NCBI GenBank assembly: GCA_964019335.1
Contig: OZ025664.1
Span: forward strand, 372,001-436,000
Origin: Diplonema japonicum
Lineage: Eukaryota > Protista > Euglenozoa: Diplonemea
Direction: 5' to 3'
DNA: 64,000 bases
The position numbers and the translations under genes were made by a program. Positions within the stretch are counted from its first letter, which is position 1. Every line of letters begins with the position of its first letter. The notes below the pieces were generated by a model. It saw only the letters and a program-made list of their open reading frames with translations, was not told where the DNA came from and made no database searches. Shown here piece after piece: positions 1-49,739 of the stretch.

Positions 1-3000
1 CAATTGCGCGATACCGTTCTTTGCAGTCTGTGTTACCACAAGACACGATTTCACGAGATGCTTCAAAACGCTCTCACGCAGCATGGATGGAACCCCACCA
101 CTGCTTCCTTCCCCGATAAAACACCCCGCACCCAGCCCCACGACATGCGAGCCACCGTTACCCTCATTGTCTCGGAGCATATACAAACCTTCCGCAACAG
201 AGTGCCGGAGTGGGTCGCTGGTGACGTCGGCGGACACTTCCACCAAGAGATCAGCGGTTTATTCGGGAAGGATTTCCTGGTGCAGGACATCGTCCTTGCG
301 GAGGTACCTGTTTACGACGCTGTTGAGTGGGCAGACGAGGCGGGCGAGAAGGTCCGCATGCAGCTCCGCGATAAATCGCTTTTCAAGGCAGTTCAGGGCA
401 GCTACACACAAGTTCAGTCCATATCGTACTCCAGCAGCAATTCCGTACACATGATTTACGATCAAAATAGAAAAGGTGGGCGTGTCCCTGCCCATGTACT
501 GTCACCTTTACGAGCACTCGCATCGCAGGCAGGCGTCAGCCATAATATACCACCCATCACGGCTCCTGCCAACCAAGTGCACGGCACACGTGTGACCATC
601 ACCCTTCACGGTGTGCCTGGTATCACATATATTACTGATATTCACAAGGTCCTCGAAAGAGTTCTTGCGAAGGCTAGCTTTTCCTTCCTCTGTCTCTCTT
701 CTCGTGTTGCTGTTTCCTGGGAACGGGTTCGTGCTTCGAGGAGCTTGGCGTCATCGTTGCAGCAGGCAGTCAAATGGATGGAATCAAGGCAGGCTTTGCA
801 AGACTTTGAGTGGAGCAAGCTGCAGGCAAGCGCCGCGTTCGACCAGCCTGGCATGATCGAGAGGATTCGGGAGACGGCCACGCGTTGCATGAATGTCGAG
901 GTGGGGAAGATCACCATCGTGCTCGCCAATCAGGAGCACTCCAGTGTGTTGGGTTGTTCGCTGGATAATGTAAGCCTTGTTTCCACACCTGAGTCCAATC
1001 ATGTAGCCATGCACAAAAACCTCTCAATCACGGGGCTTGGCATCTTTGCCGATCAAGGCCCACAAGTGGCAGCCCTGCTGTCTCGTTTGAAGAGCAGCAA
1101 GTCTCCAGCTGACCTTTCATCGCAGCTCCAGCCTCTCAAGAAGTGGCTCCTCCGTCCAATGAGTACTACGATAAAGTACAGCGAGCTTGAGAGAACAGCA
1201 CCAAAAGATGAGGCGCTTTTGCGGATGCCTGCAAGGTTCAACATCGGTGTGTCTATCTCGGCCGTAGAACTGCAGGTACTCAGAACACACATCCAATCGC
1301 TTGCTGTTTTCAAAAGATTCTTCTCGTTGCACACCCTAAAAATGAAATACAAAAAACTTGATAAATTTGCAGAATCGAAGGTCTGGTGGCGGCACGCTGT
1401 CGCTTGTGTCACAAAGGAGGTGAAGGACAAATACTGCGGCTCCTTGCGAGTTTCTCGGGGTAAAGATCTCCTGAAACAAGACTACATCAAAATGTACAAG
1501 AGGAGCTTGAGGGAGGTGCAAGGGTACCCCGTGACCTCTGATGAGGATATGGACGGGTGGTACTCTCCCCTTCCTGTTAGCAAGCAACATCGTAAAGGGC
1601 TTCATGTGAAGTACTTCGAGCTACTGGAGTCGGTGATTGCTGTCGACGTCCTCCTGCAGTACAGGGCACAGGCGGTGAATGAAGTGAAGGATGAAATTGC
1701 GGTGAGGTTGCTGGATACAGATGCACGTAATGCGCTATACGTGTCGCGCGAAAAGCTCCTGAACAAAAAACTGCAGGCAGAGGAAAGCAAGGAGCAGTCC
1801 TTTTTCTCCCGAGGGGTTTCTGTGCTCACAGGAGCTATGAAGAAAAGCGTCACAATGCTTGGACTGAGCCAGACCTTGAAGGATTTCAGTGTCCTGCCTT
1901 GGAACACAACACTCAATGAACTGCTCAGAGTGCAGGAAGAGATCAAGGCTGCTGCTGGGTTCAATGATGACGGTGAGCACGTATCAGACGAGAGGCTCCC
2001 TTCGTTGAAGGTTGCCGTAGCCATCGAGGGATGCAAGATATCAAGCAGCACAACTAGCATTGCCGTGGAAGGTCTCAGTGTTGGTGCAACCTGTTGGGAA
2101 GCGGAGAAAGTGCTAAAGTCAACAGGCGGAAGGGTCCACATCAACGATGTGACGCTGAGTGCGGTGACGCTCCTTAGCAGCGACCGACCCGTGTTGTGCA
2201 AACGGCCTACAGACAAGCCTTTCTTTTACACTGAATACATCGACGCAAACATCGGGACGAAACTCATTAAAGTAGGCATCTGCGACGTGCGAGCACTGCA
2301 GGTAAACGTCGACATCCCTGCTGTGGCAACACTACTACAGGAGTTCAGGTTCCCTTCCATGAGCGGGGCCATCGAACCTTCTCAAGTGGTGGCTGTCTCT
2401 CCATTAGATTTGCGCGCTCCATCGCCTCCAAGCCCGTGGTCCGTGACTATCACATCGAGCTTCACTTGCTACGCACCGGTCATCACCCTCAAGAGGATGA
2501 CCCTGTCCCTCGGGGTCCTCACTGTGAAGGGCTCCACCACGAGAGGCATCAAACTTGGGTTCGACCAGCTGGCATTGAAAGTCAAGGATGCATTTGTGCT
2601 GCACCCTATTTGCCTGACCGCTTCATACGGCGACGAGTCCAAGTGCTTGATTGACCCTGTCAACCTTGAGCTCAACACTGGCATTGTGAACATGATGGCG
2701 GCTGACGTGAAGGATCTGGTTTCGTTTGCCGTTGACCCCTTTACGTCGGTACGTGAGGAAGTGTTTGTGTCCACTGGTGAGGTCTGCGGTCCTGTGCTTG
2801 TTGACTACCAGGGCGAGACACAGGTGTCGCGGTACCTGACAGAATGGGGTGAGAACACAGCTGACCATCGAGAGTCGTCAGCAGTCATTGAACAGGGCTG
2901 GGACAGAATCCCGAAGCAAGCAAGAGAGCTCAAAGGGTTCTCACAACACAAACCCCATACCATCAGTTTGCAGACGACACGAGTGTTCGGGAAGGACTTA

Positions 3001-6000
3001 GCACGACTGGTGCTCACCCCAACAGAAAGCGGCACACCTATAAGTGTTGATCTAGGTGGTGCGTGCCATGTAGTAAAACTGCCTGACCCTTGGTTGGCGT
3101 TAGTTCTCCCGCAAGACAAAGCAGACAGCAAATTGTTCTATTACGTCATGTTGTCAGTGGCCTCGCCTCAGGACAGGGAGGTCCTGCATGAGATGCTCCA
3201 TGCGCAGATCTTCCATCTGAATAGAAGCGCCGGTGCCCCCGCTGTACGTGTTTTCAACGAAAGAGACACACGTATGATGCAGCATCCTAAAAGGAATCAT
3301 GTGCAGGGGCCTGGGCCCGCCTTGAGGTGCAACGTTTTCTTAAAAGCCGTGGCGTGTTCATTTAACGAGCTTTGCTTTGAAGTCAAAGCACCGACCGGAG
3401 ACAACTTTGCTATTGGGGCACGTTTCTACAAAAGCAAAGCTACTCTTAAAGCAAGTATCGATGTGCAGGCGGCAAGGTTTTCTGATTCGAAGAACACGTT
3501 GCTACAGCTAGCTTCGAGCAAAGGGAAGGCGTTCTCCTGCGAACTACACAAGGAAGGCAGCGCTACCTCCGTGTCAGTGTCACTTCCAAAAGTGCTGTTG
3601 AAGATGAACAGGTACTCTGTGCCGACACTTGTGGAGTACGCTGATGACATACGCAGCAGCATCAGGATAGCTACAGATAGACAGCTTGTGTACCACTACC
3701 AACAGAACATCACCACTAGTGAGGCAGTCCAACCTGATGGCAACAGCGAAAGTAGAAGCACGATGAAGCTTGTTTGTGTTCCTGTGAAAGAGTTCTTCAC
3801 AATCGAGTTCTACGACCTCAGCAAGCTTCTGTACGCTGCCCACTTGCAAAGCATCGACAGCTGCTCTTGGGAGATGCGGCCCAAGGGGGTGTTCGGGTCA
3901 CTAGAACTCGGTACCTTCAGTCTCCGCAGCGCGGCAGAAGAGGTGCCGCTTATCAGCTTTGGGACACCGTCGTGCCTGGAAGTTGCTGTGAAGCAGAAAG
4001 CGATCGCCACCACAGAGGTGTCCGTTGGCGCTCTTTTCATTAGTGCTGATGCTTCCTCTTTTGTCGACCTCCTCACCTACTTTACTCCCGTCCTCGACAT
4101 ACAGCCACAAGAAGTGCCCGTACCCGATCCTAGGAGGTACGACCTCCCCGCAATGCGCAACGAAGCTCTGAAACGGAAACTCGGCACGGAGGGAGAACCT
4201 CAGAGTCTGCCAGAGTTCTCCGTCGTCGTTGACACATGGACTGTGAGCTTTCCATTGATCGAGCTCCCCATCAAGATCAACCTGTGGAACACTCTGCACA
4301 TATCTCAAAACAGTGACGCGGGCAACGAGGATGCCATGTTTGTTGTCCGAGCCCAAGGTTTCGGGATACAGCGTGGCGTGCATCCGTACTCGGGGTACAA
4401 TGCACTGGTGGTGCTGAAGAAGTCTGAGGTGCCGTCCTTGGGTTGGGGCACAGTAGAAGTGCAGTTAGTGTGTCCGGAGTTGGTTAGTGTGAGGCACAGT
4501 GAGTACTGCGACGTGGTGGACAGCATTGTAGCACAAGCTTACAAGCTGCTTGTCTTTGGCAGGACTATCAAGAAGCAGCCAGCAAGGGTTGCGCACCAAC
4601 AACCATACGCATACACGAAGCCTGGAGGGAAAAAAAGTAGTGTAAAGGTTAGCCTGACATGGAATGCGTGGGGCATGGTGCTGGGGGACAGCCCTAGGGA
4701 AACGCTGCGTGTGGATGTCGGCGAAGGACTGGTCACTGCTAACATAGGGGAAGAAATCAATTTTTCAGTGTCTCGGCCCAGTGTGGCTGTCGTTGCAATG
4801 ACGAAGACGGTGTTCAGGATGTTCACCAATGCGGGAACAAGTGATTTGGCAAGCATCTCGCTTCAGAGGACAAAGTACCCCACTTGCACTCACATCATCA
4901 CGACTTCGATTGTCGACTTCGGTCAAGCCGTCATCCTCATCGACGCCGAGACTGTGGGCTTCCTGAAGCGCCTTCTTCTCGTCGCACCCCCGCTGCCACC
5001 GGCACCACTTGAGACCCAACCCATCTTAATAGACCAGCCTTCTAGCGCGCCACTCCCTCTACAAGAGATCAACCTCTTCTGCATCGATGTTGAGGCTGTC
5101 AACTTGCCGCAAATAACTGTTGCAAACAACAGCTCGACTCTGCAAGTGGGGCTGAAGCGGATCTCTATCCAATCAGATGAGACAAAGGCATCGCACCAGG
5201 TCACAGCGCACAACATAAAGGTGAACGAGCTCACCTGTTGGATCGACGATGCACAGGTTACTGACTTGAGCATTGCCATGCGATACACCGAAACTGCTGT
5301 CTATGGGAGCCTCACGGCGTGTGACTGTGATAGTACTATATGGAAGGTAGACAAGGGTGATCATCCTTTGGGGGTGGCTCGGGGTTTGAGTGTTTCTGCG
5401 GAACATATCAAAATGATGGTGAGTCCGGGTCAATTGCAAAGCCTGCTGTTCATCAAGGAAGGCTTATTGCAAGGGACGAAGGGACCCAACACAGCAACAA
5501 CACCGACGCAGGCGCCTGAAATTAAAGGCTGCTCGAGCTGTGAGTGGCCATCCCCTGAACCCGCGCTCTTCTTCCAGTGCTCGATACCGCTTATTGAGGT
5601 GGTGGTTGGCGACCACGACACTGTTGAGTACATCACAGCACAAGTGACCTCGCTGACGACTACTGCTTCAGTAGGCACCATCATAGGTGGTCCTGTGTCG
5701 CCCGTCGCGCTTGAGACGACGTTGTCCACCTTCGTGCTGATCGATGGCAGTCGTGCTTCCTCTGCTGTGCCTAACCTCGTATCCGTGTACAGCCCTTCAA
5801 ACACCATATGCAGGCATCCTAAAACCGGTACTGCTTCCCCCGACACTTCCCTGTCCCTCACCTTCCGGTCCAACGCCACCTCTGACCCCGCACTCGTCGA
5901 GGTCAACGTGGGTGTCGTTGCTGTGGATCTGCACACTGCGTCCCACGCCTCAATATCCTCTGCTGTTCCCATCATCGTCGTTTTCAAGAACCTGATGGAA

Positions 6001-9000
6001 GTGTTCCCTCCTGCGCCCCCAAAGAGGGTAGCAGTGACCAAACAGCCCGCATCGGCAGCACCATTGCCACGCTTGAAGTTCGCTCTCAAGCAATTCGAGT
6101 TAGGATGCGCGATGGACTTCTACTACATCGCATCCTGCACATGTAAGGAAATCAGCGTGGAACAAGGTAACAACGGGATGGAGCTTAGAGTCACCAAACT
6201 CAACATCGTCAACAACGGGAGGGGCGAGGATGACGTAGACATCATGAGGAGTCATGGAGCTGTGTTTGTGCAGCTCACGATCAACAAGGAGGGTTTGATC
6301 AAAGGGAACATTGAGGGAGCTAATGTTGCGGTCATTCGCGAGCAGCTGTTTCATTTGACGTCATTTGCAATGGTCTGGCAGGGGGCTCTTCTTGAGCTGA
6401 AGCGTGACGTGGACGAGCTACCCCGCCAGCCTCCTCAACCGAAGGTGAAGCCCACAATACCTGACATGTCAATCACCGTCAAAGACTTCACACTTGCAGT
6501 GCCTGCGAATATTACGAACCTACATTCTGGCCTAACCGTGAGCGTGAACAGGGTTGTGTTGAAATCAAGGGAAGGACTTGTAACTAGCACCGTTGATGTG
6601 CATGCGAATGCTGCTGCAACAAGCACCAATGTGTTTGTCTTGCAATGCAGTGCTTCTGTGGAAGTCACAGAACCGACAATTACTGGCGGGCTGCAGTTGA
6701 CGTGCTTCGACATCAACTGGGACACACCCATCAGGAAGGTCGTCCTTGACACATGGTACGATAACCTTGACGGCCTGTGGTTGCCTCACAAAAAACCGAG
6801 AAGCTACAGAGAGCAGAGCCCGCGTCCTGTAGGTACAGTCGCCATTCGTACTGCTTCACCGGTCCCCACAGCGCACGGCACAATGATAATGGAAAGCACC
6901 ACCGCGGCGAGCAGCTGCCCTTCTGTAGCGAACACAGTGTTTCCTTGGCTCGTTTTTAACTTCAGCTGCTGCCCAATAACATTCACTGCTGAGGGTGACC
7001 TTGTGGTGAGCATAACAGAGGTAAGCGCATCTGTGCAACTACACACAACCAGTGGCAGCGCGGTGTTGCACCACCCAGATGTAGTACTCATCAGCAAAGG
7101 GTTCACCATCATGGAGTGGAGAGGAGAGCGTGACACCGACAACGACACCAAACAAGCGTGCGTCAACACGGAGTGGAACGACAAATCTTGCACAGCAAAT
7201 GTAGTGGCCAATCCGATACGGTTAGATGTGCCTCATAACTGGAAAGACTTCATGCCAGTGTCTCTAAGGCCGGGAAGTGGGAGGGACACGAGCATACCAG
7301 TGAGAAGCACGACCGTGATGCACAGGGGTGAGGTGTGTCTTGTGTCTGAGTACGTGATTCACGACAAGTGCGTTGTGCGGAAGGACATGGTGCTGGATGC
7401 TTACTGCAAGTGGGTTGTAAGCAACATAAAGGAACACGATCACGTATCATACCGCCTGAGGGACGGGTGGCACGACGATGGCGTGGTAGCAAAGGTGAAC
7501 GAAAACGGGACATACAACATCAAGCGGGAGAACGGCGAGGTGCTGGAGGGGTACAAAGATATCAACGTGAAGCGTGACGATGCGATGCACGCAGAGGAGA
7601 CGACTATCGTTGAGGTCGACTGCCGCGGCAGTAAACTTACTCTGTCGCAGATTTCGAGCGGTTCGCTCATTTCAGTCCCTTCAGGGACTGTTCTGGTCCT
7701 GCACAATGCCATTGTGGTTGAGTCGTACCCAGGGTTCTTTAAATCCTCGAGCTGCATCGAAGGACTCTTACGCCTGCACCACACGTCAAGCCTCATCAGC
7801 TCTCAGGACGCGGTGAAACCAGAGTCTATTCTCCACGACGACGCTCCTGTAGCATCCGTGCAGACCCCTGCACCTAGGTACGTAGAAGTTTCCCTCCAAG
7901 CTGGTGTCGATATCCAGTTTCTTGTGATGGGTGATGCGGCCCCTATTCGGATGATCAGCACTTTGCAGGTGCTGTCCGAAGACCTCCTCAAGGAGACGCC
8001 TAAGAGAACATCTCTAACAGTCACAACAGAGTGCACTGCTGCTGATGATGTGATGGTCACCTTGCCGAACCTCGTTGTGACACAGTCTTCTGACCCTTGT
8101 TTGGCTGTTGATATCTCCATCAGTGGCTTCGTTGTCAAGATGGCGCCCAATGCCTATGCCTCTCTGGCAGAGTCTTGCTTCAGCGACCTCGTCCCTTCCC
8201 TCTACGACGTGTCACAGCAACCTGTCATCCAGGTCCGGTCCTTCACGGCGGAGGTAGCACTTACATCGTGCGAGTCGACGTACCAGTCACCAGCTTTGAA
8301 AGATCTCAGCCCTCATGCATGGGCCGTGCCTGAGCCAAAGTGGGCCTTGAAACATATCAAGCTTGGTCTGTCCGGGTTAGGGTGCGATGATATTTCCGCG
8401 TTCAGTAGTGCCATCCCAGCACCTCTGGTACCTGACATCGTGCAGATCGACACAGTCACCTTGTCTATCGACTGGCAGAGCCTTGTGACAAGATCCACTG
8501 CTGTCCCGGCTGTAGAGCTCTCTGTAGGGAATATGTTTGTAGCAAATGTGCCAAACAACTTCACCCGCTGGATGACTGCCCATGCAGTACTCTCCTCTAG
8601 AAAACCCGCGCAAACAGGCCAACCTAACCTTCAGATTTACGACTTGGAGGAAAGGGAGCGGCACCACGCCATGGACAGTTGGCGAGCGTCGCTTATCCAC
8701 TCCATAGCAGAGAAGTTCGCCATCACGGCCGCACCACAGCTAGTGGCCACGCGTTGCAACGTGTCTCTAAAGGAGGTGCTGCTGCAGGTGAAAGTAGACG
8801 AGACGATTCTCAACATGTCAGTGCCTGTGCTTCGCGTGGCGCCTTCCAAGATGGACGATAAGCGCACTGAGGCCATGAGGTTAACTATCCCGACTTTCAT
8901 GCTCAGCATGTCGCAGGGGCTCAGCCTAGTGGAGGTGACTGACATAGATGTGTACGTTGGCATCAAGCAGACACTGCAGAGCATGATGCTGGAGGTGGGT

Positions 9001-12000
9001 CTAGGTACGGTTAAGACTACCATTGACTCAGCCTTGCTGCCCCAGTTGCTGAACATGGGAACTGAAATTGCAAAGAGTAGCAGGGCTGCTGCCCAGTACA
9101 CATTTAAGAAAGAAGCTCGTGCAATGGGCCTTGACCGTTCTAGGACTAGGTGGCAGTACGCTTTGCGGTGCTTGACACACTACCATGCAAGCCACAGACC
9201 AGCAAGAAACGGCGGTGGCAAGACTGCTTCGTGCCTGGCGCACGGTATGAAGCTGCTCCTTTCGGACTATGCCATTCTTCAAGTGTCGCGCCTTAATGAG
9301 CGACCAGTGAAGGTGCGTTGGAGGAACTCTGGGTACAGCAAGAACGAGCACACCTTAAGGTACACACAGCTACTGGAGTCGTGCCTCCCGATAGAGATGC
9401 TTTGGGCAACACGAAAGAAGGTGTACAGTGCCTTCAGGAGCAGAGGGCTGGTGACCGACGCTGTTCCGAGTCTGTCTGTAACCCTGCTTCCTACAAGGAA
9501 GCAGGATGTACCGGCATTCCTGAATGCCGTGAAACCTGCTGAAAGGAAATATGCACTAAAGTTCAAAGCCAAAGCGTTTGCGCTATTGTGGGACAACTTG
9601 GAGATTGCGGTAGAAGGCATGTTCGGTGAGGTCAGCGAAGCTAACATTGTAGTGGCACATCCTAAAGTAGAGATGAGGCTAGGCAGGGACACGTTTTTCA
9701 CGTGTTCCAGCAAGAGCACACAGCTTGTGACCGGAGACATGCAGGAGGTGGACATTGTCGTTGGAAAGGTGGATATCGAACTGGGGCTGTCCACTCTGAG
9801 GCAGCTGACTGTCTTTGACAACGGGCTGCAGCAATCGCTGATGTATGGGTGTCAGCAAGATGACGGGTCAAGCACGGCAACTGTCACAGTCGATACCTAC
9901 ACCAAGCCTACCGGTTGTGTGACGGTGCCAGTGAAACTTGGCATGACCTTTGGTGTTCCGTACAAGACAAGTAATGCGTTACTGCCGCAGTGCTTTTTAC
10001 ACAAGCTCGACAGCCTGCTAGGAATTCGTGAGCACCACCTTACTTCTGATGCAACATTCTCACCTTTTAACCAGCTGCTGCTCGGCCCGCATAGCAAGGT
10101 GCCCTACGGAGGACATGGTCCATTCCCTGGGTTGCGAAAGCTGATGGCAGAGGTCACAACAGTACAAGACACTTTTGCTGAGACGGAGGTTTTGGGTGGC
10201 GTACTCAAGCTGGACGGGCATGGCAAGACACTGACACTTCTGGAGATGGATAACAAGATACAACGGCAGCCAATAAAGGTTGATAGCCGGCTCGCGTGTC
10301 CCGTGCTGGAGATACGGAACTGCAACATTGTGCTTCCTGGGCTGGAGCGGCTTTGCTTGGAGAAATTGATCGACATGCCTTCAGGGTGCGTGGTGCGCTT
10401 CGTGAACTGTACCGTGCACTACGCCAGCATCGCTGCAAACAAAACGGTGCACCTCGATCTCGAGGGCGACATCATGTCGTTCGAAGTTCCTGATGGGAAG
10501 ACGGAGCAGGAAAACCTGCAGACACTACACGCGCTGCTGAGATGTGACAACATGAAGACTACGCTGTACGATATGAACGGTGAGCTGACGCAGCTCTTGC
10601 ACCGCTGTGTACAGGCAGGAGCGTATTACAAACTAGTATTAACAAATGTGACAAAAATGCGCAAAATGGAAATTTCAGGGGTTCGTTTCAGCATGACAGC
10701 TGAGAAGCATGGGCTGTGCCTTGAAGTCAGCGGGGGCCAAAAACCGGCGATCGTCCTGTCCACAGTGCCGCAAAAGGATGCCCGCAATACAGCGTGTTTC
10801 CATGCTGCTGTGCAGCTCCGGCCTGGTGAACACGTTGAAGTCAGTGTTGTGTCATTTACGCTTAAGACGACAGCATCTGATGAACCCATTGTGTCATGCG
10901 TACCTGAAGGGGCCGCTCTGACAGTTAACGTCACTGCGCATGACGTAAAGACCATGCTTGACCAAAACACCCCCCCCTTCACTGATTTTGCTATCACATT
11001 GCACACCTTCTCGTCTTCGCTGGACCCTATCCGAGTCCTCTCGTTGTGCACGCTCGTCAACGGTATCATCTCTGTTGTCCCTGTTGGCTGGCTCGATATT
11101 TCTGTCGACTGGCTAGCTGTCAAGAGGCTCGTGCTAACTTTGACCGAGAAAGGCCGTATCTACTCCCTGGAGCTCCTCCCGCATGGTGAAACCGCCAAAC
11201 ACAACCTCTTGTGTTTTGGAAAGCTGCAAGTACGATGTCCCTTAGGCCTCTTAGCTGCGACCTTGCTCTGTGACCAGTTCTTGCCCTGCGTCGATATGAT
11301 GTCCTGGGAAGGTTTCACCATAAACAGCCACCCTACCACCGGTGTGTCCGTGGAGTTGAAGCAACCGAATATTAAGTTGGATTTCCCCCAAGCACCCAGC
11401 CTTGACGAGCTGTCTCGGCGCGACGAACTCAGCAGCAAGCTGTTCCCCCAGTCAAACTGCATTGTGGCCCATGGCTTGGGCAGCATTAAAGAGTACTCAC
11501 AAGCCATTGATGAAGCAGAATGGGCTGGGCTCGTGAAAAAGGAGAGCAAATTACGATTGTCTGTACCTTGCTTCACGGTGGTTGTCGAGGATGCTGTCCT
11601 GAGTGTAGCAGTGCCTGCCTGTGGGATGTCTTTGGAAGGGGTCATACCGCTGGTCAAGATTCAGGCACAAATGCCACCGAACAGAATTTCCCTTCACGTT
11701 TCCGTGGAAAGCGCCACTGTAGGTGTCCGTCAAGGTAGTGCAAAGAACATCCTTCTCGGAAGGGGTGATAAAGGGCTTGCACTGAAGCTAGACATCACCG
11801 ACAATATGAATGTTGAAGTGACTACACTGCCACTGACAATCACCAGTTCGAACATCTCAAGACTGCTCGTGCTGTTGAGGGGCATCACATCGGAACAGAA
11901 ATCCCACGCCGAGCTTGCTGGCATGCTCCGTTTCATTGCCCCGAACAAGAGCAGAGAGAAGCTGCCGCCGTTGTGGGTCCTCAAGGTGAGGATTGCCATC

Positions 12001-21000: not shown

Positions 21001-24000
21001 GGGCTGAGGAGCCTCGCGAGACAATCAGGTGCAACACAGGCGAGCCTTCCCACCTTCATTGCACCCACTATCACCGCCATGCAGTACTGCACCGACTCGA
21101 CGGAGGCACTGCTCTCCGTCAGTTGGTCGATGGAGAAGGAAGACAAACGTGTCACTGCGTCGGTGTATGCAGGGAGGCTTAAGGTACTTGCTGCCATGGA
21201 CTTCATAGCGCAGTGCAAGTCCATCGTAGAGGACACTACTGCGCCAGACAGCAAAGAGGTCGAGACAGACAACACGGACCGCGTCGTTGAAATCGAGGAC
21301 GACGTCGAGCTGAACAGGATCTTCATACCACCCACAGAAGCTTCTGATCAAGCGATGTACCTTACTCTTGACCAGCAGTCGTGCGTGGCCGACCTAACCC
21401 GTGAGGCGACACCAGCAACACCGTCGGTTGATGGACTGGAGGACTGGGATGGGGGTGTTCGCTGGGCAGTCCGAATGAGCCAGGACGTCACCATTGGACC
21501 TTACGGAAACATGGAAGCGCCGCAGTGGCTGATCCGCCCCCATAGCATGTTGTCCAGAAGCGCAGAGTGCCACTTTGTTGAGATCATAGGTGACCACCAG
21601 CCGGCTGGTGCCATCATCGACAAAGAGAACTGGAGAAGGATTCACATGAAGTTAGATGGTAAATACACAGATTGCGCGCAGTGCGGCATTCTCGACAACA
21701 CGGCAGCGGTCATCGTGCAGAGAGACACAAAGCTGTGGTTTAAGAGAGTGATCTTTGTGTTGGATTACCCGTTATCTAAAGTGCCGATAGATGCGTACTT
21801 CAAGAAGCTGAGCAATGATATGACGTGCGCTGTGCGGTTCGAGGAGTGCTTGGTCCAAGAGGAGATCGGGTTGAAAGACCTGAGGGAGTATATCCCAAAA
21901 GGCTTCAATAGCTCAACATGGGTGGCAGCGGTGCCTTTCAAAGAAGACGAAGATATTTCTGGAGAATTGAAGTTCATGTCCACTGCGAACTGCTGCAAAG
22001 GCATGGATCTGAAGGGACAGGACGATTACAAAACCGACGAGGAAGACGAGGAGGAGGAAGCTGTAGCGTCAAGCGCAAAGCTGTTGCTGAAGAATCTGCC
22101 TTGCGACACAATGGACCTCGTTGGGAGGTTCGAACGCTTCGACATTGAGGTGGTGAAGGACATCTGCGACAAGGCGTCGCGCATGTACAGGATGCAGATG
22201 ACATCAAATAATAAAGTCCACTTGAAAGAGAAAAAGAATTTGGTACTTATCCCCGTTGAAGGGGAGAGCACAAGCAACTGCACGGGTGCAGGGTGCCCCG
22301 AGTGCATGACTCTTGACGAGGCAAAGGCTAAGTGCAAGAACAACAGCTCCATCTATGGGTTCACATGGTTGCCGAAGTCCCGCGACGAAGAAAATGAGGA
22401 TACTGGGCTCATTCACGTCACGTTTATCACGTCGGAGTTTACAGCCGTCAAGCGCAACAAATGGGCAACATTCATAAAGGAAACCTGTGCCGAGAACATC
22501 TGTGCATCAATGCAACTGAAGGCCAGCAGGAAGACCGGCGACAACGAAGACGACAACGAAAAGCTGTTCGTTTCTGCGTCCCTCAACACCATGAGGGTCA
22601 AGGCCCGTAGCGTGTTGCAATGGGGCAAGACCTTACATGCCAAGAACATTGCAAAGAAGAGTGTTGTGATCCGGAAAGTACTGGCCTCGGGGTCCATGGT
22701 GACACCCACGATAGAAGGTGACGTGAAGAAGGGTGAAGTGGTGTCGCTGGTGGTTTCGTGCAAGGACACAGGGACGTTGTTGGGTGTCCCAGAGACACTG
22801 CCTGTCGGAGCACAGTTCAGAGTGATGTCTGTCGAGGAGGGCGTGGGGGCCACATTGGTCCCCATCGATGCGTCTCTCGACAGCAAGGTAGGGCAGCCCC
22901 TCAGCGAAGATGACATCAGCGAGTGCGCGCAGATTCTACACGTGCCCTTATGCAAGAGGCCTTGGACTGCTGAACAAATGACAGTGCTGCGAAAATCTGT
23001 TGGCGATGTGGTGGCCTCTGAGATTCAAGAAATCAAAGACACCATTTCAAGAGTGCAGTTTTCATCCTACATTGCGTCACTGGGCTCCCATGAGCTCAAA
23101 GAGCTGGCTTCGTTAGCGGATGTACCGCTCCCACTTTCCGTGTCAGACGAAAAAGAAGAACGGTCAGAACTGTTGTCTTCCCTGCGGTCGGCCCACAGAG
23201 ACAGGACACGGCATGTTACAAGGTCGAGGAAGGGCCGTGTTGTGCTCGAGATGGCATACTTCTCAACCTTTTTCATGTACCCCAAGGTGCCCTACCCTTA
23301 CTACGACGTGGTGCCTGCTGATGTTGTGACGGAGGACGGCGATGAGATCGACATGGAAACAGACTTCGTACCAGGTGCGTCCTTGATCCTAGCGAAGGGG
23401 AACAAAGTGGCTCTTCCTGCGGACACTTTGGTGCGCATCGTTGAAGTTCCTTCGGACTCCGTTGCGCGTGTAAAGCCTGAGCTGCACTTCAAGCCACCTG
23501 TACCTGTGCAGTTTGAGATTCTATTGGACGAATGTGTCAGAGTGAACATCACAACGAGCGACTTTGCTGCTCTGGCTTCGTTGCAAGGACCGAGCAAACC
23601 GCGTGCTGAGTCAGCCAGGAAAAGGGAAGAACCCAAGAAACAGCAGCAGCAGCAAGTGGTGACTTCCGAGACCGTCGTGCCGCCTTCGTCGGATGCACAA
23701 ATGTACGTCAACGTGAAGTTCGTGTTGCGGAGCTGCTGGGTGACAATTGTGAACGACAAGGAGGGATTCAGCCAGAACGTGTTGAAGGCCAACTGCAACG
23801 GAATCAAGGCCAAGGGGTCATGGCGTGGAAATGACTTGTACAAACCCCAAGAAGGTGTCGCCTCTTTCAATGTGGCTATCATGTTCGCACTACGCTACTT
23901 CAATCCCCTGAACGGGAGCTGGGAGTCTGTCCTTGACAACTACGGTTTGTGGATCGGATGGGAGCGACACCGCAACGTGATGTTCTCTCCGCCATTCAAG

Positions 24001-27000
24001 CAAGTCTTCAACATCTATCCACTACTGCAGGGCGGCATGCCTGTAGGGAGACAGGGAATTATGAACCTTTCTGTTACACAACACCTCATCTCGAGCATGG
24101 TGGAGCTTGTGCAGAACATACAAAACACAAAAGCCAGCAAGTCTGCGGAGTTTGAAAGATACGAAGGTCAGGTAGTTCGCAACGAGAGTGGCATTTACCT
24201 CACAAGCATGGAGCCGCTGACGCTGCTGTGGGACGCAAATGACATCTCACATGTGTTCTCCGTCAGCGGGGACAGGACCGTATGTGCCACGAAGGAGGGC
24301 ATCCGGCGTGCAAGCTTGCGTGCTAGCAAGCCCTTGCCTGAGGACAGAACTATCATGGTACAGCTTAGGGTAGAATCAGCCCCTGCAAGGGACCCCGATG
24401 CCCTGATCGGGTTGGTAGACAACAACGGCAGCAGGTGTTGCATACGATGCGATGACGGCTCTGTGGAACTAGGCGGGCTGATGTACAGCGTTCCTGCATT
24501 GGGGAGGATCTCTGATGCGACGTTCGTCAAAATGCTTGTCGAGCCCTCACAACTGAAGGTCAGGTTCTGCGTGTCCGATGGCAGTGATGAGGTGTGGAGC
24601 AACGACATTTTCTGGCCAGAGATGGAAGGCCCCCTAACCCCCACCGTATGGGGCCGTTCAGCGGGGTGGAGGTTCACCTTCCCAACAGAAGACCAGGAAG
24701 CAGCGCTTTACATCTCGAACACTTATCAATCGGAACGCGGTATTGGGGCGCATCTCGCAGAGCACCCCTACTTTGTCATATCCCCTGGAAAGGTGACACC
24801 TGGCGACAAGGCAGACAAAGAAGTGATGCGCTGCAGGTGCGACACAACGTACTTGATGTACAATAGAGTGGCATTCCCTGTTGAGAGTGAGGTGTGGTGG
24901 GTGTGGCGGAACATCACGCGGAGTGTCGCCAGTGACATGGCAAGGCCCACATCGCACCACAGCACGGCGTACACGGACAACTTGTTCAAAAATCTGTACG
25001 CGTTGCAGCACCTTGCTATAGAGTGCAAGACTGACGAGTGGAACCCCAGCTGCATGATGTGTGGGGCTGACGAAACCACCGAAGAGAAACCTGTACTTCT
25101 ATCCAGAAGGCTGCTTGTCCCACGCCTTAAAATCGAGACAGCCGTTGTGGAAGGCAAGGTGCAGACAACTATCAGATCCAGCATACAGATCAGGAACAAC
25201 TGCAAGTTCCCTATTGCTATCGAGTTGATCCTCCGAGGCACGCAGGTGGAGACCACGAAGAAGCTCAACAAGATCCTCACGGACGTCTTCCCCTCTGTGA
25301 CAGAGTGCGTCATCGTTGTGAATGAGAACGTAGGCCACGCCGACAACTCGACTGGCATCCCGCTCCCCTACGCAACGAGAGGCGGCTACTTCAGGATCCG
25401 ACCTCTTGTTTCCATCCAAGCTGACGTCGACAGCAGGGCCAGCCACCTAGGCCTCAAAGCGATCGAAGAGACTGAAGCAATGATGTCACGCACTGACCTT
25501 ATCAACGTGATGTGGTCCGAAGGACAGCTTCCTCTATATGCGTACAGTAAAGAGAACAATGAGCTATCCACTGTCCAGATGTCAGCCAGCTGCCCACGAG
25601 GGATCAAAGTTGGGAGGGCACCGCCTGCAAAGACGAACTCCATAGTAGACCCTGTCCCGCAGCACCGCCCTGTGTACTTCCACGTGCATCATAAGCCTAT
25701 CAAGCCACATGCCACTGACAGTGGTTGGCTGACTACCAACACTGGGGAGGAAGACAAATTGAACCAAGAGGTGGAGGTTGTGGTGCAGCCACTGCTGCAA
25801 TTAACGAACTTGTTGCCATGCAACGTTCGATACTGCATTAAGACAAGCCAGACAGACATCCCCAGCAGCGACGACGCACAGGGCACGCTTTCCCCGCAAG
25901 GGCCTGGACAGCACAGCACTGCTATCATCATGAGTGTGCCGCCTGGCGAAAACTTGTACCTCACGCTTGAACTAGACTCCGATCAAGGGTCAAGGCTTGT
26001 TCAGGAGGAGCTGCTGCTGATCCACCCCTCAGACAGGGAATTCCAGAACGTGAGAGAGAAGTTCGCGAAAAACAGGGACGATGTAGTCATCATGAAGGCC
26101 AAGAAAGAGTATGCGGGGATGTCCTTTTTCACTAGCCAGCTGCACGTGAAAGTGAAGAACATCATCGACGGCAACGTGGGGGCCTACAGGAACATCCAGC
26201 TGTGGACGCCTTTCTGGATAATCAACCGCACCCCGATGTCTATCAGCATGAGGGGTGGCCGCTCTCTACAGCCCCTCCCTGGGGTGTCAGGTGACGGGTT
26301 GCTGAGCGACATGCAGGCAGCAGGTGGTCCGCCTCCGCAAGCAGTGCTGTTCTCTGATGGTTCCAAGAGCCAGGCAGTAACGAAGTTCAAGATACAAGCA
26401 CAACAATCCGCGTGGTCTAAAGCCGTCGCCATCTCAGCGCCCGCCTACCATAAAGTGATCTGTGAGCAGGCAACGAACAAGCAGCGTGTTGTGATCCCAT
26501 TGGGCCTCAACCTCACTATCGGTTCAGGCGACCTCGTAATGAGCAAGATCCTCTCCATCCAAGAGGCGTACGTGGCAGTCAACAGGTTCGACAAGAGTAT
26601 CGGGCTGAGGATAGCACGGGATTACAATGCTGACGCGCCGCCCCCAAACGACGAGGAGGATGATGAAGCGATCCCTGTGAACATCCTGGAAGGCTACATG
26701 GAGGGACGGCCTCTACCGAAAAAGCCTTTGAACTGGGTGTTTGCATTGGACACTCTTCAAGGATATGCAATGTCGAAGGCGTTTGATCCTCATGCGTCCC
26801 CTCAGCTGGAGCTGTGCGTGATGGAAGGCGATAAGCGTATCTCAAGCTGGTCATATGCTTTTGAACTACAAGAGGTGGGGAATATCCATCTGAAAGTCTT
26901 CCTGAAAAACGCCGACAACGCTCCAGACCAGGAAGCGGAGATACCCGTGATCCTTTCAGCCAGTTTCACTACAATCGGGCCCACTGTCGTCCTCGAGGTC

Positions 27001-30000
27001 GACAAAGCAATGGCCCCACCTGTACGGATCATCAACCAAACCTGGGATCCAGTACATGTGGTACAGGCGTGTGCCCTTGATGAATCCCGTCTTGGGAAAG
27101 TCCTTGATAGGTCTACAGGAGAGTCGCAGTACCGTGTGCACACGATCCCCCCTGTCACCGCGTACCATTTCTTCTATGATGACCATAGGACGAAGATCGG
27201 TAAAATTGAGACAGCACAACGGATCAGAGTGCACACAGGCACCAGCATGGATTGCCCACAAGGGCTGCTTGTACTCTTAGAGCCACAAAAACTGCCAAAG
27301 AGGACTGGCGATGCTGGGTTTATGCGTCTCGAGAACGGGAACAACGACGGAAACAGCTTGAAGCACATCCACTGTGAACTCGGGAAGAACTCTCTAGATG
27401 TCATTATCGAGGTGAAGCTACCTGTGTCACTCTTAAAGGTGAACGTGCTGAAGGCGTACAGGCTCGTGGCAGCGGACGTGAACCTCATTGGGGACGACAC
27501 CAGCGACCCTTTCTGCATTGTGAACCTCGGGAACGAAACAGCTCAGACGGAGGTGGTGAAGAGGTCCACAAACCCTGAATGGAACGATGAATGGCTGAGC
27601 CCAGGCGGGGGCAACGAAGGGTTCACGATGCACACCATCCATGAAGATCTCTCAATTCAAGTTTTCGACAAAGACAAGTTGTTAGCGAACGACTTCTTGG
27701 GACAGGTTGTTATCAACCCGTCGGAGCTGCCCTCGACAGGTACCCGCACTTTCCCGTTGACCATGCGCACAAGGTCTGATTTGAAACTTGTGCGAGGTAG
27801 GTCTGCAAGGAAGGATGGAAGACCGGACTTTGGCGACATCACAATACAGTGGGAGAAGCAAGAGCTGAACGAGGAAGGCGCGCAAAAACCTGTTAATATC
27901 GTGTCGAAGTTCGAGATCCTGGGTGCTGACGAAGAGGATGAGATGGACTCCTTTGACGTAGGTGCGGAGGTAGAGGTGCAAGAAACAGAAGACGCGTGCT
28001 GGCTGGAGGGCACCATTGCCGAGATCGCAGACGAGCAGGTCACCATCGATGTCAAGGAGGCCGATGGCATTACAGCTGTGCGGAGGGAGTTCAGTCTGGA
28101 CGGTATTATCATGCGCCGCCACATGGCGAATGAGATCCCACCACATGGCGCAAGATTCTACCTTACGGAACCTGTGAAGGTGAATGGAGTGACCATAGCA
28201 CGCACAGGTGCCGTGGGCGGGGTGCTGTGTGACGAGACAGGCATTTCAAAGACAGGAAAGATGAGAGTGTACTTCAACATGCGAGAAGATCACAGCGACG
28301 CGTGCGTCTTTGTCCTCCCCAGGAAACTCAGTGTGGAGGCGGGCACAGTCGACAGATGGCCTTCCGAGTTCGTTATCCAAGCAAGCTTTGCCATCAGCAT
28401 GTGCGGGAACTACCTGGGCCACAGGCGGGAGGTGATGTACGTACAAGTGCAGTCGCTGAGCATGTACTACTTGGTGGCGAACGACGGGAAGATTAGTTTC
28501 GACATGCAAATAGAGAATGTACAAGTGGACAACACGCTTGGGAACTGCACGTTCCCCGTTATGTTCTCGCTTGCTCATGACAGCCACACCGGGAATGCTT
28601 TCCAGTTAGTGATGACGAACTTCCTCTCCACAGGGGCGAGCAGCAGGCTGGACTACCTCGGGGCACTTATCCTGCCGTGCATCATCACAGCAACCGATTT
28701 GTACATCCAGACCATTTATCAATGCTTCGGTGAGGAACTGAGGCGCTTCACAACCCTGCGGACAGACGTGACACGCGACATGGTAAAGTACAACGTGGTG
28801 CATGAAGAAGTGGCGAAGATGGACTTGACAGACGGGGATGACCCTTGGGTGTATATCCGAGAGATGGAGGTGCGACAGACAGGAGCGAGGCTGACGTTCA
28901 ACTCATTTGGTTTGGAGGACACCACCACCGACACAGCTTTGGTGTGGCTCACGTCTTTGGGGATGCAGCTAGCTCAGGTTAACGACGCGGTGATCGACCT
29001 GAAGGGCTTCCCAAGCTCGAAAAAACTCCTCCCGCTGTACATGAAGCGACGCGAGCTGACGTCGCTACTGGCGAACCATTACCTGAAGTCTATCATGACG
29101 TCGATTCTTACGATCATCGGTGCCTCGGAGCTGCTGGGGAACCCCGCACGTGCCGTGGACAAGGTGAAGCAAGGAACCAACGACTTGGTGACAAGACCCA
29201 TGGAGGGAGCTCTCTTGGGCCCTCGTGAGTTGGTAGAGGGCGTTTTCTCAGGCACCACATCGTTCCTCCGTGGCACCACTGGCGGCGTGGTCAGCTTCGC
29301 TGAGGACTTAACAGGCGCTGCGTCTGGTCTGGTCGGCATGATGACCTTCGACAACGACTATCAACGTGACCGTAAGCTCAAGATGCGCAGGCCTCCTAAG
29401 AACGTTGGCGAAGGGTTCATGGACGGTACACGCTTCTTGGCCATGTATGTCATTTCTTTCCCACCACCACCCAAACAGGAGCGTTTTCGACGGGATATCA
29501 GGCGTAGTCAGGCAGCCCTTCCAAGGCGCTGTAGACGAAGGCCCAATGGGGTTCGTGAAGGGCGTGGGTAAAGGTGTTGTGGGTGTGGTTGTGAAGCCCG
29601 TGCAAGGGGTGTTCCAGATGGTGAACAGGACACTGGCAGGGTTGAACAGCATGCTGGAGAGTATGGAAAAAAGAAAAAAAGAAACAACGAACAACAACAA
29701 AAAAAAAAACAGAGAAAAACAAACGCCAAAGGTGCAGGGAGCCGAGGGTGTTGGTAGATGAGCTTCTTCTCCCGCACGACAACACAAGGAGCAAAATCTA
29801 TAGAATGGCCTGTGCGGTGAACAATGGGAAGTACAACACGCACGTGTACGAGCACCACCAGTACGCCAGCAAGGGCGACGGCCACGTCATCTTCATCCTT
29901 ACATCGCAAACATTGCTGAACGTCACAAACGCGGAAGATGCTGTAAACGTGGACGAGCTGTGGCACGTCCATCTGGGGAAGATCCGTTGTGTGGAGAGCG

Positions 30001-30514
30001 CCGTGGGCTCCTCTGTGATTCGGATCATCCAGAAAGAAGGAACCGGTCTAGGAAGCTTCTTCAAGGGCAAGGTCTTCAAGATGAAGCTTGACACCAGCGT
30101 CGACTGCGACTCCTTCCTCATTGTGCTGAGGAGGTTTCACCCTGAAATCCCTGTCTACGCCAACATCGAGAACATGACACTCCGCCCAGTGGACGTCATG
30201 TTGATGCGGCAGTTGGACAAACACATGGACACTACAATGATCACCAATAATGAAGATCATCAAGCTGTGGAGGAAATAAGAACATATGAGTATGGATTTT
30301 TTTTTGGGGAGGAGAAAAAAAAAAAAAAAATCGTAGTCCTTGGGGAGGCCATCCGTCTGGTGATGATGCTGCGGGTGATTCTAATGAGCAGAACACCAAC
30401 ACAAACAACAATGCATCAAGCCCTCAAGGCGGAGGTGCTCAAAAGGCACCCCGCGCGCAAGGGTTGTCACAGCAGCAGAAACGAAGCTGTTGTGAATGCT
30501 GTTCCGTAATGTAG
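1..30514 (+). CDS. VPS13: Giant VPS13 (chorein)-family bridge-like lipid transfer protein, 5'-partial; exons <1-29444, 29479-29660, 29713-30289, 30337-30514 (>=10,126 aa)
   Basis: Frame is open from base 1. Chorein-N-like segment PGMIERIRETATRCMNVEVGKITI and VWWRHAV...DYIKMY motif. VAB/SHR-BD-like repeats (LRYFNPLNGSWESVLD, SSIQIRNN, QPLLQLTNLLP, WTPFWIINRT, PPVRIINQT). APT1-like QIENVQVDNTL..FPV. Gly-rich ATG2_C helices (ELLGNPAR, SVFDGISGVVRQPFQGAVDEGPMGFVKGVGKGVVGVVVKPVQG), RQRCREPR and a PH-like tail. Three GT-AG introns join the three ORF-track pieces in frame. Confidence 0.92.
27430..27855 (+). other. C2 domain within VPS13
   Basis: LLKVNVLKAYRLVAADVNLIGDDTSDPFCIV...TEVVKRSTNPEWN...LSIQVFDKDKLLANDFLGQV is a canonical C2 pattern with the Ca2+-ligand Asp positions present. 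Confidence 0.9.
29445..29478 (+). other. Intron 1 of VPS13 (34 nt, GTATGT...ACAG)
   Basis: Removal joins FLAM to SVFDGISG and restores the conserved ATG2_C region encoded in another frame. Confidence 0.88.
29661..29712 (+). other. Intron 2 of VPS13 (52 nt, GTATGG...ACAG, A-rich)
   Basis: Removal gives MLEKKNKRQRCREPRVLVDE, in frame with ORF 29748-30509. Confidence 0.85.
30290..30336 (+). other. Intron 3 of VPS13 (47 nt, GTATGG...GTAG)
   Basis: Removes a polyT/polyA stretch and yields a final exon ending KRSCCECCSVM-stop. Confidence 0.8.
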
Positions 30515-31315
30515 TTTGTTCCCCCCCCCCCTCCCCCCCCCTAATCAAAAGTTTTTTTTTCTACGCGTTGCTTAACTCTCTCTCTCTCTCTCCCCCCCAG
30601 CGATTTTTTTGTTCCTTTTCTGGTGGTCGTTGCTAGCACTTCTCTTCTCCCCAATCACCATGTTTTTTTTTCTTTCTTCTTTCTTTGGGGGATCGAATCC
30701 GTCAAAATTGGCAATTTTTGTATTAGGAAAAAAAAAAATAGAGAGAAGAACAAAAAAAAAAAAAAAAAGAAATGCCATGTACTAAAAGACTAACAGCGTA
30801 GTTGATATACTACAGCCCCCTTCTTTCTTTCTTTTTGAGATTAACCGTACCGCAGTAACAAGCAACAAAGCGTAGCTCCCCCCCCCCCCCCCCCCCTTAT
30901 TTGCATTGGGACCAATCCCTGTGGCTAGCGAGCGCAAAAAGAAATATTCTTAACCTTAACATGGGGGGATTTCCAAATAGGGGGTCAAGTTGACCCTCCT
31001 GTTTAGGAATTAGCGTCAGTTTCTTTCCCCCCGTTTTCCATCATAGTGATTTTCTTTTTTTTTTTTTTTTTGTCCCCTGACGAACGGCGGGGAACACCCT
31101 CCTCTTCCCTCCCCCCTCTTGTACTCAAAGCCCCCCCGTTTTATTCTTTTTCAATCCCCCAAAAAAGAATTGGGGTGAAAAAAAAAAAAAAGAAGAAGAA
31201 GAAAAGAAACAACAATGCAGAGTAGAAACAAAGGGAGTGGGGGGGGGGGAGGGGGAGGAGAGGGGGCAAACAAGGCGTTAACAAAAAAAAAAGAAGAAGA
31301 AAAAAAGAAAAGGAA

Positions 31316-32262: not shown

Positions 32263-32787
32263 ATGTCGGGGGACAGCGAAGCGAAAAAAAAAGCAGCGCA
32301 GAACAAACCATGCCCAAGCAGGATGCAAATGGATCTCACAGAGGAGCAAGAGGCGGATTTGAAGGAAGCGTTCAATCTGTTAGACAGCGAAGGCTACGGC
32401 ACGATCGACGCACGGGATTTGAAGGTGGCGTTGAGGGCCCTGGGGTACGAACCGCAAAAAGACAAAATGAAGAAAATCATTTCCGAAATCGACAAGGACA
32501 GCATGTCGGGCACGCTGCTCTACGAGGAGTTCAAGAGGATCATGACGGAAAAACTCTTCGACTACGAAAACGACGAGGAAATAAAAATCGCCTTCCCGCT
32601 CTTCACGGAAGGAAAGAGCAAATTCATCACCGTCGACGACTTGAAACGAGTTGCGTCTGAACTGGGCGAGACCTTAACAGAAGAAGTTTTCCAAGAAATG
32701 ATTCGAGAAGCTGACGTCCTCGATCACGACGGTGTGATCTCTGAAGAAGAGTTTCACAGAGTTATGAAGCGAGAAAACGCTTATTAA
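32263..32787 (+). CDS. Centrin (EF-hand protein), resembling the kinetoplastid flagellar centrin-3 type
   Basis: [62 protein letters not shown] are centrin signatures. [10 protein letters not shown] and EADVLDHDG recall trypanosomatid centrin-3 (from memory). Confidence 0.92.
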
Positions 32788-32910
32788 AATTTTAAAAAAA
32801 AAAAAAAAATGTAAATTAAAACATTTCATTTCCCCTATTTTTTTTATTGCCCCCATCGTACAAAACCCACACATTGCAAACAAAAAAAAAAAAAAACAAG
32901 GAGAGGGGAT

Positions 32911-49567: not shown

Positions 49568-49739
49568 GGAACACGTCGGTATTGTTATAGTTAATTAGAT
49601 CAAAGCTAGATAGAATTTTTTTTCTTCTCCTCTGTTCCCCTTTTCATCTAGAATGATGTTCATGTACCCATCCCATTGTGTGACTAGGACCTTCTGATTT
49701 TTCAACCCGTTTACACTGATCGCATCACAGGGGATCACA

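What the first reader, a model, noticed from the sequence alone, without database searches (positions are those of the whole stretch)
1..30514. A >10,000-aa VPS13, two to three times the usual length
Seen: at least 10,126 codons after splicing, still open at the 5' edge, with VPS13 N- and C-terminal landmarks. Known: typical VPS13 proteins are ~3,000-4,500 aa, and channel length scales with the number of repeating beta-groove (RBG) modules. Inference: this could be an exceptionally long lipid bridge spanning unusually wide membrane contact sites.
Basis: partly seen in the sequence, partly recalled or inferred. Interest (0 to 1): 0.8.

Follow-up and report, generated by a model that had tools for sequence, protein, structure and literature searches.

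The report
Giant VPS13 bridge with lipid-anchor tail
A protist, likely a diplonemid, has one intact gene for a lipid-bridge protein (VPS13) of at least 10,126 residues, about three times the usual size; such giants are known from other protists, but this one ends in a predicted lipid anchor and likely repeats its front-end module inside the chain.

Summary
One frame is open for 9,856 codons from the 5' edge. Three short GT-AG introns are spliced in RNA-type contigs, giving 10,126 residues. VAB, ATG2_C and PH-like domains make it a VPS13; the N-terminal region matches only indirectly. Size alone is not new: Levine 2022 (PMC7613979) lists VPS13s of 7,192, 9,307 and 13,455 residues and already proposes the wide-contact idea. 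This scan also noted a 6,579-residue one in another genome. The RBG count stays open: both folds failed (pLDDT 35-37). Residues 1,350-5,000 look weakly bridge-like, and the extra length is not disordered. I estimate 20-30 repeats (inferred). First, the spliced C-terminus ends in CCECCSVM, a CaaX-like motif with neighbouring cysteines; my searches found no such tail reported for VPS13. Second, residues 2,780-3,150 likely form an internal copy of the N-terminal chorein/RBG1 module with its calmodulin-binding helices. It beats every control in one profile test but is not significant by HMMER or HHalign. A single full-length mRNA is likely but unproven.

The parts
1..29444 (+). Exon open at the 5' edge; no stop in frame 1
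   Evidence: DNA-type contigs of X1 and X3 match 12001 onward without differences in their long records and begin 788 nt before base 1 by record coordinates
409..1701 (+). VPS13 N-terminal module (aa ~137-567): RBG1 strands and the helical RBG1-RBG2 linker that binds calmodulin in other VPS13s; chorein cap divergent
   Evidence: PMC13430412 passages
4051..15000 (+). Long stretch (aa ~1350-5000) that looks weakly RBG-like
   Evidence: 22 of 24 overlapping windows above their shuffles against reference VPS13 bridge pieces; ESM Atlas leads at 0.75-0.77 to VPS13_N, Hobbit and BLTP1_N for aa 2801-4400
8338..9444 (+). Likely internal copy of the N-terminal chorein/RBG1 + helical linker module (aa ~2780-3148)
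   Evidence: for; not significant
11095..12225 (+). Possible further copy, mainly the helical linker (aa ~3699-4075); within control range
13975..15108 (+). Possible further N-module copy (aa ~4659-5036); within control range
   Evidence: (HHalign P 0.036, probability 1.4%)
14851..19950 (+). Region with little bridge-like signal, likely rich in inserted accessory domains; Cys-pair cluster at aa ~6085-6126 resembling a B-box
   Evidence: 4 of 11 windows above shuffles; no Atlas hit for aa 5501-7500; B-box-like PDB match only E 2.6; CxxC at 6088, 6097, 6112
25765..27180 (+). VAB adaptor-binding domain (matched part)
   Evidence: Pfam PF25036 E 1e-20; PDB 7u8t E 4e-6
27430..27738 (+). C2 domain downstream of VAB
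   Evidence: Pfam PF00168 E 6e-15
28909..29433 (+). ATG2_C-like amphipathic region, continuing into the next exon
   Evidence: human VPS13A 9yg5 E 7e-18, VPS13C 9yqp E 1e-13
29445..29478 (+). Intron, 34 nt, GT-AG
   Evidence: joint in X6, X7, X10, X11
29479..29660 (+). Exon
29661..29712 (+). Intron, 52 nt, GT-AG
   Evidence: record coordinates of X6 contig 21 and X7 contig 26
29713..30289 (+). Exon carrying the PH-like VPS13_C domain (29736-30038)
   Evidence: Pfam PF25037 25.1 bits, cut-off 21
30290..30336 (+). Intron, 47 nt, GT-AG
   Evidence: joint in X6 and X7; matching loose end in X10
30337..30514 (+). Last exon: low-complexity linker ending in CCECCSVM-stop (CaaX-like motif plus adjacent cysteines at 30488-30511)
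   Evidence: the reading as a prenylation/palmitoylation signal is from established knowledge and is untested

Best explanation
The window holds one intact VPS13 gene of at least 10,126 codons whose product likely works as an extra-long lipid bridge, lengthened by added folded repeats that likely include a copy of its own N-terminal module, and predicted to be pinned to the acceptor membrane by a prenylated, palmitoylated tail. Shown: the frame, the three splices, VAB, C2, ATG2_C, the PH-like domain and the terminal CCECCSVM. Inferred from the family: the N-terminal end draws lipid from the ER and passes it along a hydrophobic beta groove to a second membrane engaged by VAB, C2, ATG2_C and PH. 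Inferred here: about 20-30 RBG repeats (33-50 nm, against 12 repeats and about 20 nm); inserted accessory domains mainly in aa 4,950-6,650; and a duplication that carried the chorein/RBG1 strands and the calmodulin-binding helices into the rod at aa ~2,780-3,150, which would give a second EF-hand-protein site along its length.
For: Frame and uniform codon bias. Spliced contigs of X6 and X7, from two studies, each cover 29 of 30 bins of 10701-30600 and show no large joint. Of 58 tabulated differences in related-strain runs X10 and X11, 42 are synonymous and none makes a stop, against 23% synonymous at random (all but two lie 3' of 23,600). Family domains are in canonical order. Predicted unfolded fraction is 13.8% for aa 1-8050, against 17-29% in four ordinary VPS13 bridge regions. 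Against reference bridge pieces, 36 of 51 windows beat their shuffles and 33 of 51 beat their reversals (windows overlap). Atlas leads for aa 2801-4400 all name RBG families. Internal module: best interior score -39.6, against best of 60 shuffles -44.6, reversed controls -43.5, and interiors of five reference VPS13s -49.7; with module 1 added, -51.0 against -61.4, -56.8 and -58.9.
Against: No RBG repeat in the middle was shown structurally: pLDDT 35 and 37, and no VPS13 among the listed fold matches. No Pfam family reaches its cut-off in the 85 tiles starting before 25501, of 97 in all. Atlas scores are under 0.9 and aa 5501-7500 gave nothing. The internal module is not significant by HMMER, HHalign (P 0.14, probability 0.4%) or PDB search. 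Three of four outside linkers (P0003, P0005, P0007) do not pick it. It was noticed first and tested afterwards with several scoring schemes. Length does not always track RBG number (PMC13036008, PMC10683392). CaaX prenylation occurs in about 1-2% of proteins (PMC11152559, search listing), and conservation of the tail in distant orthologs could not be checked.
Confidence: 0.58

Rival explanations
1. An ordinary-length bridge (12-15 RBG repeats, 20-30 nm) carries several thousand residues of folded accessory domains inserted in its loops, so the size reflects decoration and scaffolding, not a wider gap.
For: PfVPS13L1 has 12 RBGs with twice the residues (PMC13036008). Length and RBG number are not always correlated in plants (PMC10683392). 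aa 4,950-6,650 has little bridge signal and a Cys cluster. A C2 domain is inserted near the end.
Against: The extra length is less disordered than ordinary VPS13 bridges, unlike the Plasmodium case. A run of about 3,600 residues is weakly bridge-like (22 of 24 windows) and its Atlas leads are RBG families. That stretch alone is twice a whole canonical pre-VAB bridge.
Confidence: 0.25
2. The protein is a chain of VPS13 front halves. Internal chorein modules keep their caps and break the groove into separate segments, so it would act as a hinged tether or load lipid at more than one point rather than as one long tunnel.
For: The three best interior scores of the N-module profile fall at aa ~2,780, ~4,660 and ~3,700 in both versions of the test. 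RBG1 normally caps the groove with a crosswise helix (PMC7613979).
Against: Only the first copy beats all controls. The profile that detects it leaves out the capping helix. No cap was demonstrated at any internal copy.
Confidence: 0.12
3. The length is an artefact: two loci joined in frame at a short shared segment, hidden in-frame introns, or several trans-spliced mRNAs.
For: Contigs of three runs break at 17429-17520, where a variant copy of about 90 bases exists. No listed contig spans the whole stretch. Diplonemid genes are processed from polycistronic RNA (PMC10161547).
Against: The variant copy has a one-base deletion, so only the window's version keeps the frame. An X1 contig runs through 17520 without differences. 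Real introns here are short and rich in A/T runs, while the frame has one homopolymer of 8 or more before 29445. RNA-type contigs show no large joint in 10701-30600; one 161-base skip at depth 2 lacks GT-AG ends. There is one VAB and one C-terminus.
Confidence: 0.05

Closest known systems
Canonical VPS13 (yeast Vps13, human VPS13A/C; PDB 9yg5, 9yqp, 7u8t; Pfam PF12624, PF25036, PF25037)
   Same: N-terminal module, VAB, ATG2_C and PH-like domain in the same order.
   Different: About 8,500 residues before the matched VAB part, against about 1,750-1,900 before VAB in P0003 and P0004; at least 136 residues in front of the N-module; C2 after VAB; CaaX-like tail; likely internal N-module copy.
Giant protist VPS13s of Chlamydomonas, Plasmodium and Toxoplasma (7,192, 9,307, 13,455 aa; PMC7613979)
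   Same: Same size class; same proposed long groove and wide contact site.
   Different: Different lineage (likely diplonemid); mostly folded rather than padded with flexible loops like PfVPS13L1 (PMC13036008). No internal chorein copy or lipid anchor is mentioned for them in the passages read.
VPS13C and VPS13D internal duplications (RBG5-7 doubled, 15 RBGs; PMC7613979)
   Same: Growth of the rod by internal duplication.
   Different: There the central repeats were doubled; here the likely duplicated unit is the terminal RBG1 type with its calmodulin-binding helices.
VPS13Y of green algae (TM-Chorein-VAB-C2-C2-ATG2_C-PH; PMC10683392)
   Same: C2 placed downstream of VAB, and a built-in membrane anchor.
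   Different: One C2 detected here; the anchor would be a C-terminal lipid rather than an N-terminal membrane helix; the 5' end is not in the window.

Membership tests
VPS13 | VAB repeats (unique to VPS13 per PMC10408353, passage) | tested here: met
   PF25036 E 1e-20, 74 bits against cut-off 22.6; 7u8t E 4e-6
VPS13 | ATG2_C amphipathic region after the last RBG | tested here: met
   VPS13A E 7e-18, VPS13C E 1e-13
VPS13 | C-terminal PH-like domain | tested here: met
   PF25037 25.1 bits, cut-off 21
VPS13 | Chorein_N/RBG1 with capping helix at the very N-terminus | tested here: inconclusive
   aa 261-567 match VPS13_N-bearing proteins; cap not aligned; true start lies outside the window
VPS13 | Helical RBG1-RBG2 linker (calmodulin/centrin site, PMC13430412) | tested here: met
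   sequence match of aa ~430-567 to the linker of P0007 and P0008; binding itself untested
VPS13 | Continuous hydrophobic groove of RBG repeats from end to end | tested here: inconclusive
   weak statistical signal; low-confidence folds without matches
VPS13 | Lipid transfer at a membrane contact site | not testable with these tools
   needs localisation and transfer assays
VPS13Y | Tandem C2-C2 after VAB and N-terminal membrane helix | tested here: inconclusive
   one C2 found; 5' end missing; no tree built
CaaX-prenylated proteins | Cys fourth from the C-terminus of the real spliced product | tested here: met
   ends CSVM-stop after RNA-shown splicing
CaaX-prenylated proteins | Actual prenylation and membrane targeting | not testable with these tools
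   motif reading is from established knowledge

The most novel reading that the evidence does not exclude
This VPS13 grew by concatenating copies of its own front half, so it carries two to four chorein/calmodulin-binding modules along a rod of 40 nm or more, and it is fixed to its target membrane by its own prenyl and palmitoyl anchor instead of relying on adaptors alone. It would be a calcium-segmented, self-anchoring lipid bridge.
Probability: 0.25. Interest if true: 0.72.

Novelty: new variant of a known kind. Interest (0 to 1): 0.47.

Why it matters
Whether bridge length is matched to contact-site width is an open question (PMC7613979), and the known giants are confounded by flexible loops. 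A mostly folded giant in a likely free-living, intron-poor lineage is a cleaner test case. A covalent lipid anchor would be a way of targeting a VPS13 that my searches did not find in print. An internal copy of the terminal RBG1 and its calmodulin site would go against the pattern of growth by central repeats only.

Tried and rejected
No whole genome is held, so the upstream sequence and paralogs were out of reach. Ortholog searches failed: none of 1,728 candidates of 5,420-17,248 aa; four weak ordinary VPS13s among 7,997 shorter candidates; one unrelated-architecture hit of 52; two hits among 1.84 billion representatives; nothing in two metagenome scans. These blanks do not show absence. Self-comparison found no recent repeats. 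Generic RBG-unit HMMs were too weak even for reference VPS13s or gave nothing above controls. An alternating-hydrophobicity count barely separated the giant from shuffles (z 2.0) and failed on one reference. AlphaFold2 gave pLDDT 35 (single sequence, aa 1901-2400) and 37 (4-row alignment, aa 2777-3160). Their secondary-structure strings showed a five-strand-plus-helix unit at aa 2163-2256 and four helices at aa 3049-3147, but four fold searches listed no VPS13; uninformative either way. Alignments to whole-length references smeared and were not folded. The complex prediction of the neighbouring centrin with aa 3001-3160 returned no answer (score 0.02). No holder run was on record as RNA; X6, X7, X10 and X11 are called RNA-type only because they lack the introns. 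Depth rising toward the 3' end in X6 was not used, as contig depth cannot rank parts. Small accessory domains suggested by eye in the middle (PH-, SH3-, PDZ-, SPRY- and trefoil-like) got no Pfam support and were not tested one by one, so they stay open.
Full report
Observation. Frame 1 of the + strand is open from base 1 to 29568, 9,856 codons. Up to 27,000 it has no stop in any 3-kb block, while the other two + frames have 36-65, and base use by codon position is steady. The window's long genes lie on the + strand and the introns are short GT-AG ones, which fits the gene organisation described for Diplonema (PMC10161547, passages). Unreviewed notes on this genome also call it Diplonema. I treat the lineage as likely, not shown. 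No whole genome was available.

Splicing and integrity. Thirteen runs were listed, none on record as RNA; I laid eight of them. X1, X3 and X4 carry the intron sequence. X6 and X7 (two studies) do not. X6 contig 21 (5,050 nt) joins 25362-29444, 29479-29660, 29725-30289 and 30337-30541, with exactly 12 letters between 29660 and 29725, and X7 contig 26 does the same. This fixes introns 29445-29478, 29661-29712 and 30290-30336. X10 and X11, about 98% identical relatives, show the first intron, and X10 has a loose end matching the third. The spliced product is 10,126 residues and ends CCECCSVM. X6 and X7 each cover 29 of 30 bins of 10701-30600. The only other joint is a 161-base skip at depth 2 without GT-AG ends. 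Of 43 loose ends, 22 were shown; none of those inside the exons looked like a leader addition (leader recalled). Of 58 coding differences tabulated from X10 and X11, 42 are synonymous and none makes a stop, against 23% at random. I left out a three-base cluster at 28459-28461 and non-coding sites; 11 rows were not shown; only two sites lie 5' of 23,600. X1 and X3 contigs begin 788 nt before base 1 by record coordinates and break at 17429-17520, where a variant copy with one substitution and a one-base deletion occurs in X3, X7 and X12. An X1 contig crosses to 17520 without differences and only the window's version keeps the frame, so a false join is unlikely.

Family. VAB (E 1e-20), C2 (6e-15) and VPS13_C (above cut-off) are found in order, and the ATG2_C region matches human VPS13A and VPS13C chains at 7e-18 and 1e-13. 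At the other end Pfam VPS13_N does not hit and the PDB gives nothing. A search of aa 181-1380 against 1.84 billion representatives returned two proteins, matching aa 261-567, both with VPS13_N above cut-off. The match covers RBG1 strands and the helical linker, but not the first ~110 residues of the cap. At least 136 residues precede the module. No close ortholog was found, which crippled folding.

The middle 8,000 residues. No Pfam family reaches its cut-off there and there are no recent repeats. The region is not padded with disorder: 13.8% predicted unfolded, against 17-29% in four ordinary VPS13 bridges. Scored against bridge pieces of five reference VPS13s, 36 of 51 overlapping windows beat their shuffles (p 9e-5) and 33 of 51 beat their reversals (p 0.018); the overlap inflates both. 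The signal is steady over aa 1,351-5,000 (22 of 24), weak over aa 4,951-6,650 (4 of 11) and strongest just before VAB. An earlier run gave means near zero for three unrelated window proteins. The Atlas leads for aa 2801-4400 name VPS13_N, Hobbit and BLTP1_N, at 0.75-0.77, which is lead level only; aa 5501-7500 gave none. Both AlphaFold2 models were of low confidence and four fold searches listed no VPS13. Packing at the fungal density would give 42-45 repeats before VAB; Levine's Toxoplasma ratio gives 29 in all. Allowing for the non-bridge region, I estimate 20-30 repeats, or 33-50 nm at 20 nm per 12 repeats (PMC10683392, passages). This is inference.

Internal copy of the N-module. The N-terminal 200 residues of reference P0005 matched aa 2701-3000 best (robust z 9.2), and an alignment placed the chorein strand-helix motif at aa ~2,815-2,830. 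A whole-module profile built from five outside VPS13 N-termini ranks aa 137-565 first, then 2,747-3,143, 4,666-4,971 and 3,679-4,058. With controls, aa 2,780-3,143 scores -39.6, against a best of -44.6 in 60 shuffles, -43.5 among six reversed sequences and -49.7 in five reference interiors. With module 1 added it scores -51.0 against -61.4, -56.8 and -58.9. The other two sites stay within control range. The protein's own linker (aa 400-590) finds aa 3,000-3,190 as its best non-self window (2 of 2,000 shuffles reach the score); P0008 does too, but P0003, P0005 and P0007 do not. HMMER, HHalign (P 0.14, 0.036, 0.057; probabilities under 2%) and PDB searches are not significant. The idea came before the tests and several schemes were tried. 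I put one internal copy at about 60% and further copies at about 30%. It matters because RBG1 is the terminal, capped repeat type and VPS13 is thought to grow centrally (PMC7613979, section 5 part 1 and passages), and because the four helices between RBG1 and RBG2 bind calmodulin in VPS13C and fungal Vps13 (PMC13430412, passages).

C-terminal tail. After the PH-like domain, the RNA-confirmed last exon adds a low-complexity linker and CCECCSVM. A cysteine fourth from the end followed by S-V-M is a CaaX-type prenylation signal, and neighbouring cysteines are typical palmitoylation sites (established knowledge, not tested). The base rate of prenylated proteins is about 1-2% (PMC11152559, search listing). 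Searches for VPS13 with CaaX (8 papers, 7 listed; the one I opened, PMC12406788, uses CAAX only as a GFP marker and in a reference) and with palmitoylation and prenylation (1 unrelated paper) found no such tail. The terms do not occur in the main text of PMC7613979, and 'prenyl' does not occur in PMC10683392. Subscription papers and these papers' supplements were not covered.

Known context. PMC7613979 states that VPS13s of Chlamydomonas, Plasmodium and Toxoplasma have 7,192, 9,307 and 13,455 residues, the last suggesting 38 RBGs and a groove over 75 nm, perhaps for wider contacts. PMC13036008 (passages) models PfVPS13L1 with only 12 RBGs despite twice the residues, and PMC10683392 (passages) finds length and RBG number not always correlated. 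A search for VPS13 with diplonemid gave two papers unrelated by title. The D. papillatum genome paper has no VPS13 in its main text; one supplement row names a diplonemid VPS13a orthogroup without a length (2 of 18 places seen). A search for chorein with internal duplication held four papers, three listed; I read only Levine's, in part. PMC13298984, PMC10341546 and PMC10408353 were seen as passages.

Verdict. A real giant VPS13 in a size class that is already described. The CaaX-like tail and the likely internal N-module make it a new variant. Interest 0.47.

Noticed in passing
window 32323-32787 (+): Centrin gene about 1.8 kb downstream (best PDB match 'Centrin, putative', E 1e-48). Yeast Vps13 binds the centrin Cdc31, but adjacency in a one-strand gene cluster is probably chance.
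   Followed up: partly
window 17429-17520: About 90 bases of the coding region have a variant copy (one substitution, one-base deletion) in runs X3, X7 and X12 that continues into other sequence in X12. It is likely a small piece duplicated elsewhere in the genome; there is no second copy in the window.
   Followed up: partly
window 32815-39689 (+): Adjacent open frames with a glycoside hydrolase domain (Glyco_hydro_72, E 1e-10) and a 1,3-beta-glucan synthase domain (E 3e-101); possibly one spliced hydrolase-synthase fusion gene.
   Followed up: no
window 49698-55640 (+): 1,980-codon THADA/Trm732 gene; used as a helical control.
   Followed up: partly
window 63491-63956 (+): Cys-rich 156-159-nt repeats alternating with 15-nt repeats in a frame open at the 3' edge, like a mucin-type surface protein.
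   Followed up: no
window 56579-56778: Assembly gap of 200 N, outside the finding.
   Followed up: no
window 1-408 (+): At least 136 residues precede the VPS13 N-module, with no family match; the first methionines are at residues 20, 49, 120 and 151.
   Followed up: partly
protein P0009: An 873-residue protein with glycosyltransferase domains (PF00201, PF06722, PF03033) matches the 60-residue ATG2_C-like exon at 52% identity.
   Followed up: no
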